From IMG/VR virus record IMGVR_UViG_3300032272_000063, positions 1 to 26,128 of that record: a stretch of 26,128 nucleotides of DNA. One strand, 5' to 3'. Shown in pieces: positions 17,935 through 26,128 of the stretch; positions within the stretch are counted from its first letter, which is position 1; each line of letters opens with the position of its first letter. The translations under genes and the position numbers were made by a program. Under the pieces are notes generated by a model. The model was not told the DNA's origin. It searched no databases and saw only the letters and a program-made list of their open reading frames with translations. The stretch is from a virus. Taxonomy: Duplodnaviria; Caudoviricetes.

Positions 17935-18672
17935 TTAAAATTTGCTCAGGGTTTCCCATGCGAGTTTAACCACCGCCGGAACTTGTCCGTTGCCAATGGC
18001 GCCAACCTGGTCCACGTAGGAATCCATCCCATGCTCCATTCCAAAACTGACGGGCGGGGCTTGTAGCCAAAACTCAGGGCATTCTCCTGTAATTCTTTGC
18101 TGTATCGCCGACGGCCTGTCCGGGATATCCCCCAGCCCCTTTTGCCCATGCTCTTTGTGGGTGCAGGCAATCCAAAGGCGCTTGCGTTGTATTGGTCCAC
18201 CACAGGCTCTTGCACCCAGCACACCCCATTGCGCATCATACCCCACTGAGGCCAAGTCACGGAGGACGGTACCAATCCCCCTTTTAAGTAGGGCGGGACT
18301 GTTCTCCACAAGCACATGTCTAGGTCCCACCTCGCTAATAATTCGGGCCATGTGGTACCACAATCCGCTCCGTTCTCCTGACAGTCCCGCCCCTTTTCCT
18401 GCGGCGGAAATGTCCTGGCAAGGGAATCCACCTGTAATGATGTCGACTTCATCCCGCCACGGGCGCCCGTCAAACGTTCGAATGTCATCCCAAACAGGAA
18501 AAGGTGGTAAGATTCCGTCAAGCTGCCTTTGCAGTAAAACGGCCCGGGGATATTCTTCAATCTCGACGGCCGCCACTGTTTTCCACCCGAGCAACAGTCC
18601 CCCAAGTATTCCCCCGCCGGCACCGGCAAAGAGGGCGAGCTCACGCAATCCCGTTTTTTGATGTAATACCAT
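17935..18672 (-). CDS. DNA (cytosine-5) methyltransferase, alpha-type polypeptide
   Basis: Motif I 'LFAGAGG', IV 'GGFPCQDIS', VI 'VENS', VIII 'QRKR', X 'IGNGQVP'. Short (245 aa) with no clear motif IX. Confidence 0.9.
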   Translation of the reverse strand: MVLHQKTGLRELALFAGAGGGILGGLLLGWKTVAAVEIEEYPRAVLLQRQLDGILPPFPVWDDIRTFDGRPWRDEVDIITGGFPCQDISAAGKGAGLSGERSGLWYHMARIISEVGPRHVLVENSPALLKRGIGTVLRDLASVGYDAQWGVLGARACGGPIQRKRLWIACTHKEHGQKGLGDIPDRPSAIQQRITGECPEFWLQAPPVSFGMEHGMDSYVDQVGAIGNGQVPAVVKLAWETLSKF

Positions 18673-18677
18673 GTCAT
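17946..18677 (-). CDS. Alternative-frame ORF within the MTase gene, putative beta subunit (motif IX-like)
   Basis: 243 aa with no stop along the whole MTase gene. ATG overlaps the upstream stop (ATGA); 'PSVLEWSMGWIPTWT' resembles motif IX. Confidence 0.6.
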   Translation of the reverse strand: MTWYYIKKRDCVSSPSLPVPAGEYLGDCCSGGKQWRPSRLKNIPGPFYCKGSLTESYHLFLFGMTFERLTGARGGMKSTSLQVDSLARTFPPQEKGRDCQENGADCGTTWPELLARWDLDMCLWRTVPPYLKGGLVPSSVTWPQWGMMRNGVCWVQEPVVDQYNASAFGLPAPTKSMGKRGWGISRTGRRRYSKELQENALSFGYKPRPSVLEWSMGWIPTWTRLAPLATDKFRRWLNSHGKP

Positions 18678-19339: not shown

Positions 19340-19525
19340 TTAAAATATCGGAATACTGTGCTTATTAAATTTTCTCACCGCATCACTCGGAACCCATGAT
19401 TCTATGTGACCCCGTAACATAAGGATCACACCCTCAGGGCCAATTTCCTTGATAAGAAAGTTAAAAATTTCTTCGTTTGTATAGGCCTCTTCATCCTCAT
19501 CGATGATTCCTTTTATCGTCCGCAT
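19340..19525 (-). CDS. Hypothetical protein
   Basis: 61 aa from MRTIKG; starts just after the upstream stop. Confidence 0.5.
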   Translation of the reverse strand: MRTIKGIIDEDEEAYTNEEIFNFLIKEIGPEGVILMLRGHIESWVPSDAVRKFNKHSIPIF

Positions 19526-19526
19526 T

Positions 19527-19799
19527 CTATCTTGCCCCGAAACCAACGGTGTTTACCGCCATGTTGTGGATAATTTTCGCGTCTCTCTCACCAAATCCAA
19601 TACCGAGTGAATTGCTATGGCCGAAACAATCAACAATCAATTCGCCATCAGGGCGGGTGGTGAACTGTACAAAGGCCGCACTTGTTACATTACATGCGCC
19701 AAGCTCTTTTCTAAGGGCATCCCTCATCTGGACATGCTCAATAGAAGGAGGAAACAAGACGTACTTTATTTTGTCAAACATGATGTATTTAAATTCCAT
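19527..19799 (-). CDS. Hypothetical phage protein
   Basis: 90 aa 'KYIMF....VLFP....H......SAAFV......CFG.S.SL'; GGGGGTG SD. Confidence 0.6.
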   Translation of the reverse strand: MEFKYIMFDKIKYVLFPPSIEHVQMRDALRKELGACNVTSAAFVQFTTRPDGELIVDCFGHSNSLGIGFGERDAKIIHNMAVNTVGFGAR

Positions 19800-19802
19800 A
19801 TC

Positions 19803-20060
19803 TCACCCCCTGCCATTCGAAAGAAAAGGACTATCCATTTTGATGCTCAGTTTAACGGACGTCCCCGGAATGCTGAGTACCGCAATTCTACCCGTGGGAG
19901 ACAGGAGTCCCGTATACCTGCGTTGTGTCTGACAGTCCATAAATACAACATACTCGGGACCACTCCAGCGTTCGCCGTAAGTTGTAGCTGTGAACAAAAA
20001 TCGGAAGTTGTCACCCTCTACCAGATACACATTTTTGATATATTTTTCAGCGTTCCCCAT
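19803..20060 (-). CDS. Hypothetical protein
   Basis: 85 aa from MGNAEK with AGGAG SD; first gene after the sigma54-type promoter. Confidence 0.6.
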   Translation of the reverse strand: MGNAEKYIKNVYLVEGDNFRFLFTATTYGERWSGPEYVVFMDCQTQRRYTGLLSPTGRIAVLSIPGTSVKLSIKMDSPFLSNGRG

Positions 20061-20115
20061 TTTTCTATCTCCTGTTTTATATTTTCTATTTTGCTGCGTT
20101 ACACCATGATAACAA

Positions 20116-20132
20116 TGCAACGCGTGTGCCAG
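20116..20132 (-). promoter_or_regulatory. Sigma54 (-24/-12) promoter
   Basis: Minus strand CTGGCACACGCGTTGCA = TGGCAC-N5-TTGCA with exact GG-N10-GC spacing. Intergenic, about 55 nt upstream of the ATG at 20060. Confidence 0.7.
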
Positions 20133-20181
20133 TTTTAAAACCGCGTGTTTACTGAGTTTCCAAAATGGTCGAGACACTTGA

Positions 20182-20274
20182 CTATGCAAAGTTTGCATAG
20201 CAAAATGGAGAACTCAGTAAAATAGCCTCGTAAAGTATGCAAAGTTTGCGAGGCTGGTACGCAAATTTTTCATA
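20182..20274. promoter_or_regulatory. Three related palindromic boxes, putative activator/operator sites
   Basis: CTATGCAAA-G-TTTGCATAG (20182-20200, perfect), TATGCAAAGTTTGC (20236-20249), TACGCAAATTTTTCATA (20258-20274). Confidence 0.6.
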
Positions 20275-20365
20275 TCTCATTGCCCCACGAGTCCCACCAC
20301 TCTTTTTTATCCCGCGCAAATAGTTCGATACGAGGCACGTATCCCATAAGATCGGTAGTTGCATT

Positions 20366-22831
20366 TCACATATCCCCGTCAACGTCTATGCCTGCCAGCT
20401 CGGCGCCATAGATTATCAATTTGTTACCGGCCCCGTTGCGTATTGGGATCCCTGTTGACTCCAAAGATTTGCGAAACGACGGCTTGGTCATGGGCCTATC
20501 GAGTCCCTGTTCCTGGCACCAAAGACGGAAATGTGAGTACGCATCTCGAAACAGTACCGTGTCCCCATCGTTACCTGTGGTTTTGAACATTGAGTGCGTC
20601 CACATCGCAACGGGCGATCCCTGAGATGCCCACCGGCGTTTTTCATTGTTTATTGCCCCCGGTGGATCCCAGTGACCACGGGACCGGAGCCTTTGCAGTC
20701 CCTCGATAGCACTTCGCAAAATGCCGGACATCTCGCTCCGGATGATTCTTCGAGACAAGCCACGGTCCTGCTTTGCCGGCGCGAATGTCCGCCCGAAATG
20801 AATCACCTGCGCTCTTCTGGTCATGCCATGACTGACGTCCGATGTGGATGGGAGCTCATTCGATGCCATCCACACGATTATGGTATTCTCGAATCTAAAT
20901 GTTTTTTCAAATTTGGGATTGGCAGTAAGTGTTTTATTCTCCGATGTTTTCTTCAAAAACCCATCGGGTAGCTTGTACTTCGTATTCAAGTCTTCATCGA
21001 TCATCATCAATTTGCCAGGAAGGCAGGCCATCCCATGCTTGTCGCTCACAATGTCCGGTATTGCAGCGCAAAGGACATGGTCCCCCAAAAGAGCGGACAG
21101 GATATTAAGCAATGTCGTTTTACCGTTGGCGCCCTCTCCGGTCAGCAACACCCACGTTGCTATGTCCTTCCTTGGCTGTATTGTATACCCAATTAACTCC
21201 CAGAGGTGTTGGACCACTAACTCCGGGTCCGACGAATTGGCAAAAACCTCCATGAGAAATTTATCAAATCCAGGGCATTTTGCATCAGCGTCCCATGCAA
21301 CTGGCAGACAACTGTTTAGCAAGGAAGCCGGGTCATGTTTCTCAAGTTCAAAATTGCCTGTTTTTGAGTCAATATGCAGTTCCCCATTTTGGCAGTTAAT
21401 AATGGTATGGCTATTAGACCCACTGTATCCATAAAATTCAATTTCGGACGCAAGCCGGGCTTTCAACAGTTTTTCCGACTGGGCAATCATACCCGATATA
21501 GTTGCCCGCGATTCAGGGTGTTGAGCTAGCCATTCCTGCGATGCTTTTAACAGATAATGCTGTACCATGTTTGAAGCCAATGGGCGCCAGTGGGTAGCCG
21601 CATATACCCAAAATAACTGGTCCGCAGCATGGGTGATTCGGTCGTCAGACTTGAAATGCTTAGTTAATACAATGTCAGTTACTTCGTAAGCAGGATCATT
21701 CGACCCTATGGAATCTCGTTTATACAGGACCATCTGGTCCCGAAGGTCGGATATTTTAAACCTTGTTTTCCTCGATATGATAGATAGAAATCTGTTCTTA
21801 TCGGGCTTCGATACATTCGCCAGCATTTTGAAAACCGACTGCAGGTCCACAAGCGTTGCATTGCGCGGCAGGTTATTTACCTGTTCAAAAATAAAGGATA
21901 CTGGACACTGTTGGAAATCACGGCCGTCGTGTACGATATCTCCAACAGTGTCCGGTAGGTTGACAGGCAACTCAGGGATTGTATCGGCTTCCTCTTGAGT
22001 TGTTGGGGCTGGTATGGTACCGCCCCGTGCAGTCACAAAATTAAACAGCGTGCCCGCTGTAATGTTTCCTTCTTTACCCGATTCCAGCGAGTTCCACCGT
22101 TCTGTTATTTCATCGCCGGCGGTTGCGTACTCCGGATCACTGGTGGACCACTCCAAAAATTCCCCGAGGGCACCACCACCACTTGCATCGTGCACGGATT
22201 GCATCAATTGCAGCCAGGTTTCATGGTCCCGAAAGTCCTCGGGAATGAGCTGTTCCAGCATCCCTTTAATCTGAGAGTCCGTGGCTTTTTTTAATCCTGT
22301 ACTCGATAGGGTGGTATCGCCAATGTTCTTCGCAATATCGTCCAGAAGCCATTGGGGCGCAGGCACGGGACCACTCCCCCAGGGGGATTCCTTAACAAAT
22401 TCATAGGTACCCCCGGACGGGTGATTTGCCCCTGCGGTGAGAACCTGTGCACCAATAGATAAAAAATCAATACCCTTGTATATACTGTCCAACTGTTTAT
22501 GTGTTTTTAGTCCAGCGGGTTTCGTTGTATATACATGGATTCCCCCGCCGGGAGTTTTCACCATTGGAAAATCCTGCCCGATCTTCACACCATTTTCTTT
22601 AGCGTACCGGTTCGCTATCTTCCGGAACCCCTCCAGTCCGCCTTTTCTGGGGTCAACATCAATGACTAGATGGTCAGCGTCCAGAACCCAGCCGAAGGAA
22701 CATCCCGGATATCTGTCTAACTGTTTTTGAGTTGTAAGTGCCGCCCTGGTCCAGTCTCTGGACATAGGTTTTTTAGTACCTTTTGTTAACGGCGTTAGGC
22801 GATACCCTCTTGACAAATAATAATTAATCAT
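20366..22831 (-). CDS. Bifunctional Prim-Pol + PriCT-2 + D5/P4-type SF3 primase-helicase
   Basis: 'KKP...W', 'VIDVDPR..G', 'KTPGGGIHVY', 'D...WL...Q..H.....F.EWS...EY', Walker A 'GEGANGKT', 'IDED', 'SNELP', 'RRAQVIHF'. Confidence 0.92.
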   Translation of the reverse strand: MINYYLSRGYRLTPLTKGTKKPMSRDWTRAALTTQKQLDRYPGCSFGWVLDADHLVIDVDPRKGGLEGFRKIANRYAKENGVKIGQDFPMVKTPGGGIHVYTTKPAGLKTHKQLDSIYKGIDFLSIGAQVLTAGANHPSGGTYEFVKESPWGSGPVPAPQWLLDDIAKNIGDTTLSSTGLKKATDSQIKGMLEQLIPEDFRDHETWLQLMQSVHDASGGGALGEFLEWSTSDPEYATAGDEITERWNSLESGKEGNITAGTLFNFVTARGGTIPAPTTQEEADTIPELPVNLPDTVGDIVHDGRDFQQCPVSFIFEQVNNLPRNATLVDLQSVFKMLANVSKPDKNRFLSIISRKTRFKISDLRDQMVLYKRDSIGSNDPAYEVTDIVLTKHFKSDDRITHAADQLFWVYAATHWRPLASNMVQHYLLKASQEWLAQHPESRATISGMIAQSEKLLKARLASEIEFYGYSGSNSHTIINCQNGELHIDSKTGNFELEKHDPASLLNSCLPVAWDADAKCPGFDKFLMEVFANSSDPELVVQHLWELIGYTIQPRKDIATWVLLTGEGANGKTTLLNILSALLGDHVLCAAIPDIVSDKHGMACLPGKLMMIDEDLNTKYKLPDGFLKKTSENKTLTANPKFEKTFRFENTIIVWMASNELPSTSDVSHGMTRRAQVIHFGRTFAPAKQDRGLSRRIIRSEMSGILRSAIEGLQRLRSRGHWDPPGAINNEKRRWASQGSPVAMWTHSMFKTTGNDGDTVLFRDAYSHFRLWCQEQGLDRPMTKPSFRKSLESTGIPIRNGAGNKLIIYGAELAGIDVDGDM

Positions 22832-22855
22832 GCGTTCCTTGCAAAACAGTTAGCT

Positions 22856-22884
22856 ATTGTGACAGTGTACATGTATCTTGTCAA
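22856..22884 (-). promoter_or_regulatory. Sigma70-type promoter for the primase gene
   Basis: Minus strand TTGACA-N17-CACAAT with extended TGn; AAGGA SD before the ATG at 22831. Confidence 0.7.
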
Positions 22885-22897
22885 ACCAAAATTATTA

Positions 22898-23038
22898 TCA
22901 TTTCACATCCCGCAATTGGTCCCGCAATCGGTCCTGCAATTGGACCCGCAATGGGTCCTGCAATCGGCCGTACAATTGCATATCCAATTGGCCCCACAAT
23001 CGGGTCCTCAATTGGCTGTTGATCTCATATGGTCTCAT
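22898..23038 (-). CDS. Cassette mini-gene 1 (46 aa, 8 tetrapeptides)
   Basis: MRPYEINSQL RTRL WGQL DMQL...RDVK; ends in in-frame TGA TAA TAA. Confidence 0.6.
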   Translation of the reverse strand: MRPYEINSQLRTRLWGQLDMQLYGRLQDPLRVQLQDRLRDQLRDVK

Positions 23039-23295
23039 TTCACATCCCACAATCGGTCCTGCAATTGGCCCTGCAATTGGCCCCACAATTGGCCCTGCAA
23101 TTGGCCCTCCAATTGGCCATACAATTGGTCCCGCAATTGGTCCCACAATTGGTCCCGCAATTGGTCCCGCAATTGGTCCCACAATTGGTATCGCAAGTGG
23201 TCCTGCAATTGGACCCGCAATTGGTACCACAATTGGTCCCGCAATTGGTACCACAATTGGTCCCGCAATCTAATATTGATCTCATATGGTCTCAT
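23035..23295 (-). CDS. Cassette mini-gene 2 (86 aa, 18 tetrapeptides)
   Basis: MRPYEINIRL RDQL WYQL...QDRL WDVK; ATGA coupling. Confidence 0.65.
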   Translation of the reverse strand: MRPYEINIRLRDQLWYQLRDQLWYQLRVQLQDHLRYQLWDQLRDQLRDQLWDQLRDQLYGQLEGQLQGQLWGQLQGQLQDRLWDVK

Positions 23296-23456
23296 TTCAC
23301 ATCCCACAATCGGTCCTGCAATTGGCCCAGAAATTGGTCCCACAATCGGTCCCACAATCGGCCATCCAAAGGTTTCCACAATTGGTCATACAATTGGTCA
23401 TACAATTGGTCCTCCAATCGGTACCTCAATCTAATATTGATCTCATATGGTCTCAT
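23292..23456 (-). CDS. Cassette mini-gene 3 (54 aa, 10 tetrapeptides)
   Basis: MRPYEINIRL RYRL EDQL YDQL...WDVK; GGAGG SD and ATGA. Confidence 0.65.
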   Translation of the reverse strand: MRPYEINIRLRYRLEDQLYDQLYDQLWKPLDGRLWDRLWDQFLGQLQDRLWDVK

Positions 23457-23653
23457 TTCACATCCTCCAATCGGCCCCGCAATCGGCCCCGCAATCGGCC
23501 ATCCAATTGGCCCCGCAATCGGCCCTGCAATCGGCCCCGCAATTGGACCCGCAATCGGCCCCGCAATTGGACCCGCAATTGGTCCCACAATTGGTCGCGC
23601 AATCGGTCCCGCAATCGGCCATCCAAATGGCTGTTGATCTCATATGGTCTCAT
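23453..23653 (-). CDS. Cassette mini-gene 4 (66 aa, 13 tetrapeptides, Arg-rich)
   Basis: MRPYEINSHL DGRL RDRL...RGRL EDVK; GGAGG SD and ATGA. Confidence 0.65.
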   Translation of the reverse strand: MRPYEINSHLDGRLRDRLRDQLWDQLRVQLRGRLRVQLRGRLQGRLRGQLDGRLRGRLRGRLEDVK

Positions 23654-23778
23654 TTCACATCCTCCAATCGGTACCACAATTGGCCCCACAATTGGCCCCA
23701 CAATTGGTCCCGCAATTGGCCCCCCAATTGGTCCCGCAATTGGCCATACAAATGGCTGTTGATCTCATATGGTCTCAT
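23650..23778 (-). CDS. Cassette mini-gene 5 (42 aa, 7 tetrapeptides)
   Basis: MRPYEINSHL YGQL...WYRL EDVK; GGAGG SD and ATGA. Confidence 0.65.
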   Translation of the reverse strand: MRPYEINSHLYGQLRDQLGGQLRDQLWGQLWGQLWYRLEDVK

Positions 23779-24023
23779 TTCACATCCTCCAATTGGCCCC
23801 GCAATTGGCCCCCCAATTGGACCCGCAATTGGTCCCCCAATTGGACCCGCAATCGGACCCACAATCGGTCCTGCAATTGGCCCCGCAATTGGACCCGCAA
23901 TTGGTCCCACAATCGGTCCCACAATCGGCCATCCAAATGTTTCCACAATTGGTCATACAATTGGTCATACAATTGGTCCTGCAATTGGCCATACAAATGG
24001 CTGTTGATCTCATATGGTCTCAT
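23775..24023 (-). CDS. Cassette mini-gene 6 (82 aa, 17 tetrapeptides)
   Basis: MRPYEINSHL YGQL QDQL...RGQL EDVK; GGAGG SD and ATGA. Confidence 0.65.
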   Translation of the reverse strand: MRPYEINSHLYGQLQDQLYDQLYDQLWKHLDGRLWDRLWDQLRVQLRGQLQDRLWVRLRVQLGDQLRVQLGGQLRGQLEDVK

Positions 24024-24208
24024 TTCACATCCTCCAATCGGTACCGCAATTGGCCCTGCAATCGGCCCCACAATTGGCCATACAATTGGTCCCGCAATTG
24101 GTCCCGCAATTGGCCCCCCAATTGGACCCGCAATTGGACCCGCAATTGGTCCCACAATTGGTCCTGCAATTGGTCGTGCAATTGGCTGTTGATCTCATAT
24201 GGTCTCAT
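24020..24208 (-). CDS. Cassette mini-gene 7 (62 aa, 12 tetrapeptides); junction has a 10-bp duplication
   Basis: MRPYEINSQL HDQL...RYRL EDVK; GGTCTCATAT duplicated at 24201-24210. Confidence 0.5.
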   Translation of the reverse strand: MRPYEINSQLHDQLQDQLWDQLRVQLRVQLGGQLRDQLRDQLYGQLWGRLQGQLRYRLEDVK

Positions 24209-24214
24209 ATGGTC

Positions 24215-24283
24215 TCATTTCACATCCTCCAATCGGTCCCGCAATCGGCCATACAAATGGCTGTTGATCTCATATGGTCTCAT
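24215..24283 (-). CDS. Cassette mini-gene 8 (22 aa, 2 tetrapeptides)
   Basis: MRPYEINSHL YGRL RDRL EDVK; GGAGG SD. Confidence 0.55.
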   Translation of the reverse strand: MRPYEINSHLYGRLRDRLEDVK

Positions 24284-24297
24284 TTCACATCCTCCAA

Positions 24298-25473
24298 TCA
24301 GTCAAGAAGATCTCGTACAATATTGTTTACATGGTCTACTTCCCTGCCGTTCCAGACGCGGGTTACCCCGTTGAAAGTGTGCACTGTATTATGCTCAGGG
24401 TGTGTGATACAGCCTTCGCTATCTGTTACAATACATTGATATCCTTCGAAGTCATATACATCCCCCGTGGCGATGGTGTGGCGGATCACGGTGTTCTCAT
24501 CCTGTAATTGCCTGTCGGCTCTCAGAGTTCCACCTTCCGGGAGTTTCAACAGGAATTCCATATGCAGATCACCCTGTTGCCGCTGGTCCAAAAGGCCCCC
24601 ATTATTGTGGACACCGTCCAGAATAGCAGGTTTCCAGTTACCTGTTCTGGTCCCGGAGCGCCAGTTAAGAGCCTCCTGAACTGTTGAGCATTCATTGTCG
24701 ACCCCTTCGACATGTACTTTGCCTGTTGACGGACAGGTCATTTGCAAAAACACGGCTTTGTTGCCTTCGAAAAGATGACCCAAATCCATTAGTTTGTACG
24801 GACCCTGGGGGTTATCACTTGCTTTAACAGCGTCCATTATACCGGCGCCATCAGTTGCGCGGTGTAGTCCCATTCGTCGCAATACAACGGCCCTCTCATC
24901 TACATTTTCGATGGACAAAACTTCCGTAGGGTCCAGTTGATCCGCAGGTGTGGTAACCCACCTGGCATCCACTTTTATATCCCACAGAGCATACATACAG
25001 GACCCATCTGCATACAGGATAGCCGGCCCATTTTCATTATGCAGCATCATATCCCTTGTCCCGGGGTAATCATTAATTATGTGATGCTCAATTGGGGGGT
25101 CCATTATCGCAAAATCGTGATTGTTGAAAAATGCGATAAAACATTGTGTCAGCCCCACTGTTTTATTGAGCTCCTGTTTCGCCTGGTCTAATTTCGGGTC
25201 CGAGCTGAACAGTTCTTCAAATGCCATAAAGTCCTTGTGCGCCCGGAGAGCGAAACTCGTATCAAAAATAGAGTAATCCAAGCCTATAGCACGTAGTTCC
25301 CGCATCCCCCGCACACTATGCATTTTTTTCAGTTTGACCCCGGTCACTTCTTTTACATACGCACGAGTTTGTTTTTCAATAAAAGGGACATCATTCTCCC
25401 CATAAAAAGTATCAAGCCCGGACTTAACGCAACGTGCAGCTGTTTCATCGATCATTTTTTCTGTAATTTCCAT
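24298..25473 (-). CDS. DUF6745-like protein fused to a C-terminal 'QGD...HPEH...REVD' domain
   Basis: 391 aa from MEITEK (AAGGA SD). Motifs 'LHNENGPAILYADG..MYA..I.V', 'IENVDERAV..RRMG', 'LQMTCPSTG..H..GV..C.TVQEALNW', then 'RQQGD...HPEH...REVD'. Confidence 0.7.
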   Translation of the reverse strand: MEITEKMIDETAARCVKSGLDTFYGENDVPFIEKQTRAYVKEVTGVKLKKMHSVRGMRELRAIGLDYSIFDTSFALRAHKDFMAFEELFSSDPKLDQAKQELNKTVGLTQCFIAFFNNHDFAIMDPPIEHHIINDYPGTRDMMLHNENGPAILYADGSCMYALWDIKVDARWVTTPADQLDPTEVLSIENVDERAVVLRRMGLHRATDGAGIMDAVKASDNPQGPYKLMDLGHLFEGNKAVFLQMTCPSTGKVHVEGVDNECSTVQEALNWRSGTRTGNWKPAILDGVHNNGGLLDQRQQGDLHMEFLLKLPEGGTLRADRQLQDENTVIRHTIATGDVYDFEGYQCIVTDSEGCITHPEHNTVHTFNGVTRVWNGREVDHVNNIVRDLLD

Positions 25474-25555
25474 GAGTTTTTCCTTCTTTCCTGTTTTTTT
25501 GTTTATGTCTTTATACCTGTATATACCGTCAAAGTATTCATTCCACATCATGCAA

Positions 25556-25630
25556 TCAGCCCTGCAATTGGCCATACAATTGGTCCCGCAATTGGCCCCG
25601 CAATCTAACATTGATCTCATATGGTCTCAT
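25556..25630 (-). CDS. Cassette mini-gene 9 (24 aa, premature TGA)
   Basis: MRPYEINVRL RGQL RDQL YGQL QG* LHDVE*. Confidence 0.45.
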   Translation of the reverse strand: MRPYEINVRLRGQLRDQLYGQLQG

Positions 25631-25815: not shown

Positions 25816-26024
25816 TTCACATCCTCCAATCTGTAATGCAATCGGCCCTGCAATTGGCCATACAATTGGTCCCACAATTTGCCCCGCAATCGGGTCCCCC
25901 GTCGGTCCCACAATTGGCCCCGCAATTGGCCCCGCAATTGGTTATATAATTGGTCCCGCAATTGGTCATACAATTGGTCCCGCAATTGGCCCCGCAATCT
26001 AACATTGATCTCACATGGTCTCAT
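25812..26024 (-). CDS. Cassette mini-gene 11 (70 aa, 14 tetrapeptides)
   Basis: MRPCEINVRL RGQL...HYRL EDVK; GGAGG SD and ATGA. Confidence 0.65.
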   Translation of the reverse strand: MRPCEINVRLRGQLRDQLYDQLRDQLYNQLRGQLRGQLWDRRGTRLRGKLWDQLYGQLQGRLHYRLEDVK

Positions 26025-26077
26025 TTCACATCCTCCAATTGGCCCCGCAATCTAACATTGATCTCATATGGTCTCAT
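26021..26077 (-). CDS. Cassette mini-gene 12 (18 aa, 1 tetrapeptide)
   Basis: MRPYEINVRL RGQL EDVK. Confidence 0.5.
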   Translation of the reverse strand: MRPYEINVRLRGQLEDVK

Positions 26078-26128
26078 TTCACATCCTCCAATCGGCCCCG
26101 CAATCGGCCCTGCAATCGGCCCTGCAAT
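26074..26128 (-). CDS. Cassette mini-gene 13 (partial, start beyond window)
   Basis: ...L QGRL QGRL RGRL EDVK*. Confidence 0.55.
   Translation of the reverse strand, partial: LQGRLQGRLRGRLEDVK

What the first reader, a model, noticed from the sequence alone, without database searches (positions are those of the whole stretch)
24298..25473. DUF6745-like gene inside the array lacks its usual repeats, which appear as separate genes
Seen: the only large gene in the array has the LHxxxGPAxxYxDG / ENxxxR / CPSTG..EAxxW motifs but no internal repeat. From my recollection of the family, many DUF6745 proteins carry an internal (V/L)-(W/R)-(D/G)-Q tetrapeptide tract upstream of the LHxxxGPA motif, and the flanking mini-genes encode that kind of tract. 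Inference: a split system in which the variable module is supplied in trans as many versions, or a cassette reservoir that recombines into a DUF6745 gene, giving one constant core many specificities.
Basis: partly seen in the sequence, partly recalled or inferred. Interest (0 to 1): 0.85.

Follow-up and report, generated by a model that had tools for sequence, protein, structure and literature searches.

The report
Split DUF6745 with detached repeat mini-genes
An uncultured phage carries a repeat-less DUF6745 gene inside a chain of at least 12 tiny overlapping reading frames, each a different free-standing copy of the four-amino-acid repeat that related phages build into that protein; the split recurs in unrelated phages, and the small proteins likely act as interchangeable partners of the one constant core, possibly against host defences.

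Summary
Confirmed and extended. The gene at 25473-24298 (minus strand, 391 aa) has the stated motifs, a weak DUF6745 hit (22 bits, cut-off 27) and no repeat. It lies inside at least 12 ATGA-chained mini-ORFs of form MRPYEIN-(Lxx[Q/R])n-EDVK. That is the tract many DUF6745 proteins carry internally, at a point mapping to residues ~63-71 here. In viral contigs found by a core motif, 8 of 10 repeat-less cores have separate repeat ORFs, against 0 of 15 repeat-bearing cores (Fisher p 4e-5). A 30%-identical fused relative (L350) sits inside its own seven-gene array of a different repeat. Split forms are scattered over the tree. The cassette-reservoir idea is disfavoured: the gene has no homology to the array, and complete split genomes hold one core only. 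Best reading: variable helical peptides supplied in trans to a constant core (0.5). Binding, expression and function are untested; the complex predictor was unavailable. The nearest studied analogue, Tweety gp54, is not homologous. Six paper searches found no description. This scan noted the architecture before on other DNA (41 notes, at least 31 genomes).

The parts
24298..25473 (-). Repeat-less DUF6745-like gene (P0001, 391 aa): core fused to a companion domain
   Evidence: AlphaFold2 mean pLDDT 94.7, pTM 0.89 with no peptide present
24619..25473 (-). DUF6745-like core (residues 1-285): N-terminal helical domain, LH-x3-GPA beta unit, EN-x3-R helix, CPS-x4-HxEGV strand region
25261..25287 (-). 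Short linker (about residues 63-71) at the place where relatives carry the internal tetrapeptide tract
   Evidence: alignments
24298..24612 (-). Fused companion domain (about residues 288-391), beta-rich, with invariant G301, D302, H332, H358, H361, D391 and near-invariant Q299, Q300, D380, E378; a metal site is inferred
   Evidence: conservation over 27-28 aligned fused relatives; the separate-gene form matches phrog_27831, P0001 itself does not at E<=0.01
26074..26128 (-). Mini-ORF cut by the window end; the array continues beyond the contig
26021..26077 (-). Mini-ORF, 18 aa
25812..26024 (-). Mini-ORF, 70 aa
25627..25815 (-). Mini-ORF, 62 aa
25556..25630 (-). Mini-ORF, 24 aa, ends early at a TGA in a degenerate junction; 82 nt separate it from the core gene
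24215..24283 (-). Mini-ORF, 22 aa; its junction begins at the stop codon of the core gene
24020..24218 (-). Unit with a 10-nt duplication at its start: a 7-aa ORF from 24218 and a 62-aa mini-ORF from 24208
23775..24023 (-). Mini-ORF, 82 aa (weak match to phrog_3311, E 0.008)
23650..23778 (-). Mini-ORF, 42 aa
23453..23653 (-). Mini-ORF, 66 aa, Arg-rich (net charge +11)
23292..23456 (-). Mini-ORF, 54 aa
23035..23295 (-). Mini-ORF, 86 aa
22898..23038 (-). Last mini-ORF, 46 aa, before the primase-helicase gene
24284..24297 (-). Example of the constant junction: GGAGG 7 nt before an ATG that overlaps the previous stop (ATGA); 10 of 12 listed starts have GGAGG, 2 have GTGGG

Best explanation
This is a split form of a phage DUF6745 module: the constant core and its companion domain are one gene, and the variable four-residue repeat that relatives carry inside the core is encoded by a chain of overlapping mini-ORFs that are likely co-translated and likely dock, one variant at a time, on the core's N-terminal helical domain, which would give one protein many interchangeable surfaces, possibly to engage variable host defence proteins. 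Shown: the anatomy, the homology of repeat and tract, the mutual exclusion across phages, and coding-type variation in the 12-nt unit. Predicted: the tract is a pair of helices projecting from the N-terminal domain. Inferred: translation by coupling; diversification by slippage and unequal exchange among 12-nt units; docking on the core; a metal-dependent activity of the companion domain; a counter-defence role, by analogy only.
For: (1) Same repeat inside relatives and in the mini-ORFs: prophiGD102-1 gp38 is the only phage record hit by a window peptide (E 8e-8). (2) Mutual exclusion: 8 of 10 repeat-less cores have separate repeat ORFs against 0 of 15 repeat-bearing contigs read whole or nearly whole (p 4e-5, or 2.5e-4 for 7 of 10), and 0 of 41 in flanks of up to 8 kb. 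(3) The one other viral locus found with a motif of the fused subfamily (L350, 30% identical) has 2 mini-ORFs before and 5 after its core, with other caps, an L-x-x-S repeat and no DNA similarity to this array. (4) The tract-pattern scan gave three more pairings: G002, G003, G034/G035. (5) Split cores need 7 label changes on a quick tree, at least 3 forced by well-supported branches, and in two cases the detached repeat type matches the internal type of the sister cores. (6) Coding signature over 127 units: position 1 is TTG in 123; position 2 uses CGG, TGG, TAT, CAG and GAG but never TAG (13 expected if bases were independent); 0 stops in 512 codons against 2 and 8 in the other frames. (7) In a model of relative P0105 the tract is helical at pLDDT 55-76 on a core at about 95. 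(8) Tweety gp54 has the same 12-bp, frozen-third-position pattern, and its repeat number tunes escape from a prophage defence.
Against: P0001 folds at pLDDT 94.7 without any peptide, so nothing shows a vacant site. Repeat-less cores without detected mini-genes exist: complete LMM01, and G037 and G039 (18% and 20% complete). Mini-gene sets without a core were seen in G001, G004, G005, G009 and G010 (all 3-30% complete). In G003, G010, G034 and G045 the mini-genes are dispersed among other genes, up to about 28 kb from the core in G034, which fits a role independent of the core equally well. The ten repeat-less cases are not independent (three form one clade), two were recognised only by eye, one is cut by a contig end, and I chose the 15 controls and tuned the detector on known tract types. 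Units are copied from one another, so the TAG count overstates its independence. Tweety gp54 shows no homology to the core.
Confidence: 0.5

Rival explanations
1. The peptides are real proteins of the same pathway but act on their own, for example as decoys or titrators of a host protein, or as self-assembling helices, without binding the core. In fused forms the tract is merely tethered.
For: The core folds alone. The internal tract is the least confident part of the fused model and tolerates 7 to 45 units. Mini-genes are dispersed in several phages. Each array has its own caps, with no cap shared between phages that could be a docking motif.
Against: Mini-genes were never found beside a repeat-bearing core (0 of 15 and 0 of 41), although extra free copies would be useful there too under this model. 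Here, in L350 and in G043 the core or companion gene sits inside the array.
Confidence: 0.27
2. The array works at the DNA or translation level: the repeats are recombination joints and ribosome-delivering spacers that shuffle or couple early genes, and the peptides are incidental.
For: Silent sites are frozen, which shows DNA-level homogenisation. The C-terminal cap encodes the next ribosome-binding site here and in G003/G010. Dispersed copies abut unrelated genes.
Against: The varying bases are almost all amino-acid-changing, stops are avoided, and the residue set copies the internal tract. Between this array and G001 the cap differs by silent changes at Pro and Tyr. Diverged arrays (G002, G044) keep the residue pattern after the DNA repeat has become irregular. 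This model does not explain the link to loss of the tract from the core.
Confidence: 0.11
3. The array is a silent cassette reservoir that recombines repeats into a DUF6745 gene.
For: The 12-nt units are recombinogenic, near-identical blocks recur between units, and the genome is only 58% complete, so a second, repeat-bearing gene cannot be excluded here.
Against: No junction or cap sequence in the core gene, and one chance 7-mer only. Complete split genomes G034, G038 and G045 each hold one repeat-less core and no recipient. Units carry their own starts and stops. No joint into the core gene among the contigs of run X1.
Confidence: 0.06
4. The mini-ORFs are a neutral or decaying remnant of a tract that was excised and then amplified by slippage.
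For: One unit is truncated and one has a start duplication; G044 holds diverged copies.
Against: More than 2 kb of intact, coupled frames in a small phage; the same outcome in many unrelated phages and repeat types; stop avoidance.
Confidence: 0.06

Closest known systems
DUF6745 proteins (Pfam PF20530, phrog_31813) with an internal tetrapeptide tract, e.g. Mycobacterium phage prophiGD102-1 gp38 and MW202476 UOF77368.1
   Same: Core motifs and fold, the neighbouring companion, and in gp38 the same L-x-[DG]-Q repeat.
   Different: There the tract is internal, the companion is a separate gene and no free repeat ORFs were found in the whole genomes. Here the tract is absent from the core and present as 12 or more ORFs, and the companion is fused. 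No function is published.
Microcystis phage Ma-LMM01 gp174 with gp175 (phrog_31813 with phrog_27831)
   Same: Repeat-less core with an adjacent companion; best Foldseek match (E 1e-11, TM 0.46). It is the only cultured lytic phage group found with the module.
   Different: It has a non-repetitive insert at the tract site and no mini-genes in the complete genome.
Mycobacteriophage Tweety gp54 (PMC2884959, PMC9262239; passages read)
   Same: 12-bp unit with invariant third positions and variable first and second positions; tetrapeptide repeat of variable number; changes in number give escape from the Phrann gp29/gp30 defence.
   Different: The repeat is AAxx and lies inside one protein; its flanks do not match DUF6745 profiles (best E 0.19); no free mini-genes are described.
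Bordetella phage BMP-1 bbp36 VR2 (known to me only from the passage in PMC2884959)
   Same: Variable-number repeat in a non-essential phage gene.
   Different: 24-bp element inside one gene, function unknown; not compared by sequence here.

Membership tests
DUF6745 (PF20530) | Score above the Pfam gathering cut-off of 27 bits | tested here: not met
   22.1 bits, E 1e-4, residues 143-211; 22.7 bits. Relatives P0123, P0124, P0127 and P0128 also fall below; fused relatives P0148 and P0261 pass. So it is filed as DUF6745-like.
DUF6745 (PF20530) | Homology to proteins that pass the cut-off, over the core | tested here: met
   A profile built from P0001 and its hits finds cores at E<1e-40 that pass PF20530; Foldseek to LMM01 DUF6745 E 1e-11; Atlas best three hits DUF6745.
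DUF6745 (PF20530) | Internal tetrapeptide tract (common, not part of the Pfam model as far as tested) | tested here: not met
   No period-4 signal; short linker at residues ~63-71.
Companion family (phrog_27831) | Direct profile match | tested here: inconclusive
   P0001 has no hit at E<=0.01. The link is transitive: a profile of the fused domain hits the G003 companion at E 1e-5, which hits phrog_27831 at E 1e-18.
Tweety gp54-type tunable counter-defence protein | Homologous N- and C-terminal domains | tested here: not met
   No match of gp54 to four DUF6745-side profiles, best E 0.19; no cluster F phage among the hits.
Tweety gp54-type tunable counter-defence protein | 12-bp tetrapeptide unit with frozen silent sites and variable coding sites | tested here: met
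   against the passage
Tweety gp54-type tunable counter-defence protein | Repeat changes give escape from a host or prophage defence | not testable with these tools
   Needs a culturable phage and host.
Silent-cassette gene conversion systems (definition recalled) | An expressed recipient gene sharing homology arms with unexpressed donor cassettes | tested here: not met
   No shared junction or caps in the core gene; single repeat-less core in complete split genomes. The missing 42% of this genome was not seen.
CRISPR array (definition recalled) | Constant repeats separated by unique, non-repetitive spacers of even length | tested here: not met
   The stretches between junctions are themselves 12-nt repeats, unit lengths run from 53 to 257 nt, and all are open frames. 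Rfam was not searched.

The most novel reading that the evidence does not exclude
Phages have repeatedly turned one variable protein segment into a multi-gene repertoire. A constant DUF6745 effector with a metal-site domain is aimed by any of a dozen co-expressed, quickly reshuffled helical peptides, so that a single phage particle carries many specificities at once against host defence proteins. That would be an adaptor-library strategy for counter-defence that needs no reverse transcriptase, recombinase or phase switch.
Probability: 0.25. Interest if true: 0.92.

Novelty: categorically new. Interest (0 to 1): 0.74.

Why it matters
It links two unexplained, widespread phage features, tetrapeptide-repeat mini-ORFs and DUF6745, into one system with fused and split states that interconvert. 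It also makes a long-standing puzzle testable: what the variable tetrapeptide tracts of phage proteins do. The only studied case (Tweety gp54) tunes escape from a bacterial defence by repeat number. In the split form each variant is a separate short gene that can be cloned and tested with one core. If the peptides aim the core, this is a new way of generating many specificities from one gene. The class 'categorically new' rests on the architecture; the function is not established.

Tried and rejected
Fold searches of the P0001 model: no Foldseek PDB match at E<=0.001; VIA-align best Z 6.1 (rmsd 3.9, 74 aligned, N-terminal helices only) and 4.6 (rmsd 3.4, 70 aligned). The companion domain was not folded alone, so its fold is barely tested. 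No solved relative by sequence; no Atlas hit for residues 288-391. Searches for close relatives with context: none in viral contigs by protein; only the window itself in metagenome contigs; none in species genomes (0 of 27 motif matches were homologues). So the neighbourhoods of P0003, P0004 and most fused relatives, and the host, are unknown. No RNA holder listed. Most stand-alone matches of the tract pattern in giant-virus bins and similar contigs were other-frame reads of unrelated repeats without a start codon; I set them aside by eye, and only 2 of the 32 records searched had a core. Eighteen of the 86 core-motif loci belong to a group with a different N-terminal domain and 16 were truncated; both were left out of the 10 versus 15 comparison, as was L218 (degenerate internal tract). 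The 425-aa (P0002) and 440-aa starts of the gene are other-frame reads of the upstream unit and were rejected. G001 looked like the missing half of this genome (array start, terminase, head genes ending where the window begins), but there is no overlap and run X1 covers only its array part: unresolved. The careful tree and the one-clade test did not finish. Promoter scan of the array region: 6 sites against 6.6 expected. Paper searches that found no description: (Tweety papers only); subscription papers are mostly outside that library.

Full report
Setting. The window is a 26,128-base linear virus record, 58% complete. It has contractile-tail genes on the plus strand, and helicase, family A polymerase, SSB, exonuclease, C5 methylase and primase-helicase genes on the minus strand. 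The only run listed as holding it is a sediment metagenome; the host is unknown. The finding lies upstream of the primase gene, and the contig ends inside the array.

The gene. Pfam DUF6745 matches residues 143-211 at 22.1 bits, under the cut-off of 27. Homology to the family is nevertheless clear. A full search gives 1923 relatives at E<=1e-3. A profile made from them finds cores at E<1e-40 that pass the Pfam cut-off. The AlphaFold2 model (pLDDT 94.7, pTM 0.89) matches the DUF6745 protein of Microcystis phage LMM01 at E 1e-11. A profile of it hits within the locus in 69 of 86 loci found by a core motif, nearly always as a separate neighbouring gene. Among 27-28 aligned fused relatives G301, D302, H332, H358, H361 and D391 never vary; a metal site is my inference. 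No solved structure matched convincingly, and this domain was not folded alone.

The array. Four complete mini-ORFs and one cut frame precede the gene; eight follow it. They are 18-86 residues long, begin MRPYEIN (once MRPCEIN), run through L-x-x-(Q/R) units and mostly end in DVK. Each stop overlaps the next start as ATGA, and 10 of 12 listed starts have GGAGG seven bases upstream. Over 127 units position 1 is TTG in 123 and silent positions hardly vary, while position 2 takes CGG, TGG, TAT, CAG, GAG and others, and position 3 GAC, GGC, GTC or TAC. TAG never appears at position 2, where independent bases would give 13. The frame has 0 stops in 512 codons, against 2 and 8 in 500 in the other frames. 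Units are copies of each other, so this is suggestive, not a formal test. Contigs of run X1 reproduce 24270-25594 and 19500-23042 exactly and break into short pieces over the array. That run may be the source of the window, and it does not confirm unit order.

The tract in relatives. Mycobacterium prophage prophiGD102-1 gp38 carries the same L-x-[DG]-Q repeat inside its DUF6745 protein and is the only phage record hit by a window peptide. All 117 new proteins listed carry such a tract, but my query profile contained it. Two less biased counts differ. Among the 150 representatives nearest P0001, 22 were fragments; of the other 128, 97 had no tract and 31 had one. One of the 31 is a false call, and a few short tracts fall under the threshold. 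Among 86 viral loci found by a core motif, 41 had a clear tract, 1 a degenerate one, 10 none, 18 belonged to a group with another N-terminal domain, and 16 were truncated. Tracts come in several types (LxxQ, VxxQ, VxxS, LxxS, AVxS, ATxA, LxxN). The insertion point maps to about residues 63-71 of P0001. In a model of relative P0105 the tract forms two helices at pLDDT 55-76 on a core at about 95.

Co-occurrence. I read the whole contigs of all 10 repeat-less cores. As controls I read 15 repeat-bearing ones, chosen by me mostly for completeness from the 33 handles I had; four came from the tract-pattern scan, and two were read to 40,000 of about 40,300 bases. Eight of 10 repeat-less cores have separate repeat ORFs: G036, G038 and G041 one long ORF adjacent to the core, G040 two, G042 four, G043 at least four, G044 one clear and several diverged, G045 about a dozen. 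None of the 15 controls has any; two hits in G061 are its own tract across the circular junction. Fisher p is 4e-5, or 2.5e-4 for 7 of 10. G036 and G038 were recognised by eye, G041 is cut by the contig start, and these three form one clade. In flanks alone the control count is 0 of 41. The two exceptions, G037 and G039, are 18% and 20% complete. LMM01 is a complete exception with a non-repetitive insert. A motif of the fused subfamily found one other viral locus, L350. Its core is 30% identical to P0001 and lies inside an array in the same way, two mini-ORFs before and five after, with different caps, an L-x-x-S repeat and no DNA similarity to this array. On a quick tree of 64 cores the split label needs 7 changes, at least 3 forced by well-supported branches. 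G040 (ATxx peptides) is sister to ATxx-tract cores, and G045 (VxDQ) to VxSQ cores. The careful tree and the one-clade test did not finish, so repeated splitting or re-fusion is likely but not proven.

How it most likely works. Shown: a constant core and a variable module exist either as one chain or as separate genes, and in my sample never both. Inferred: the chain of coupled starts makes all peptides together with the core; slippage and unequal exchange among 12-nt units renew them; each peptide takes the place of the internal helical pair on the N-terminal domain. I put this at 0.5. The peptides may instead act alone on the same target (0.27): the core folds without them, and in some phages they are dispersed. 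A DNA-level or coupling role (0.11) does not explain the residue pattern or the link to tract loss. The cassette reservoir (0.06) lacks homology arms and lacks a recipient in complete split genomes G034, G038 and G045, though 42% of this genome is unseen. A counter-defence role rests on analogy alone.

What is known. A full-text search for DUF6745 returned 0 papers, and searches returned none describing this arrangement. For these I saw only search listings and abstract openings, and most subscription papers are outside the library. The nearest studied case is mycobacteriophage Tweety gp54. In PMC2884959 (passages found by term; supplements not read) its 12-bp unit has invariant third positions and variable first and second positions. 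In PMC9262239 (one passage) mutants that escape the Phrann gp29/gp30 defence differ in repeat number. I did not read the primary study cited there. Gp54 does not match DUF6745-side profiles, so it is an analogue, not a family member. That look-up also shows that this scan noted the same architecture in 41 findings on at least 31 other genomes, some reporting a docking model. Those are unchecked notes and are not counted as evidence. Nothing earlier was found on this sequence or its look-alikes.

Verdict. The architecture has no described counterpart that I could find; its function remains inferred. Interest 0.74.

Noticed in passing
window 17935-18672 and 17946-18677, minus strand: A C5 cytosine methylase ORF (245 aa, Pfam E 4e-31) is overlapped almost end to end by a 243-aa ORF in another frame of the same strand. 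This recalls two-subunit methylases encoded in overlapping frames (recalled, not tested).
   Followed up: no
window 22856-22884, minus strand: Best promoter-like site of the region (10 of 12, with TG) lies just after the last mini-ORF and points to the primase gene; the scan as a whole is at chance level.
   Followed up: no
L006/L159 (G001) 1-340: A contig with the start of a near-identical array (cap differs by silent changes), divergent from terminase and head genes that end where the window's genes begin; sister phage or missing half, unresolved.
   Followed up: partly
G040:C1:3111-3383: The ATxx-type mini-ORF reads as an L-x-G-N tract in another frame of the same strand, and both types occur as internal tracts elsewhere, so repeat types may arise from one another by frame change.
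   Followed up: no
L190, L191, L195, L197, L198, L202, L204, L207, L214, L220 and 8 more: A group of 18 phage loci keeps only the C-terminal half of the core, with a different N-terminal domain, mostly an upstream companion, and no repeat or mini-genes in the fetched flanks.
   Followed up: partly
G034:C1:29895-30971: Complete 60-kb phage with a short core lacking the C-terminal half, directly behind two mini-genes, and further mini-genes at four other places; no companion found by my profile.
   Followed up: partly
G044:C1:131723-132970: Six overlapping small ORFs with a shared MKL- start behind the companion gene, in which the repeat has mostly decayed; such families would be missed by repeat detectors.
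   Followed up: partly
L186 7092-8120: A tract-bearing DUF6745 gene broken by a frame change at the end of its tract: either an assembly error or an intermediate on the way to a split.
   Followed up: no
G052:C1:10767-11366: An A-x-x-A tetrapeptide tract inside another, non-DUF6745 protein, similar in build to Tweety gp54.
   Followed up: no
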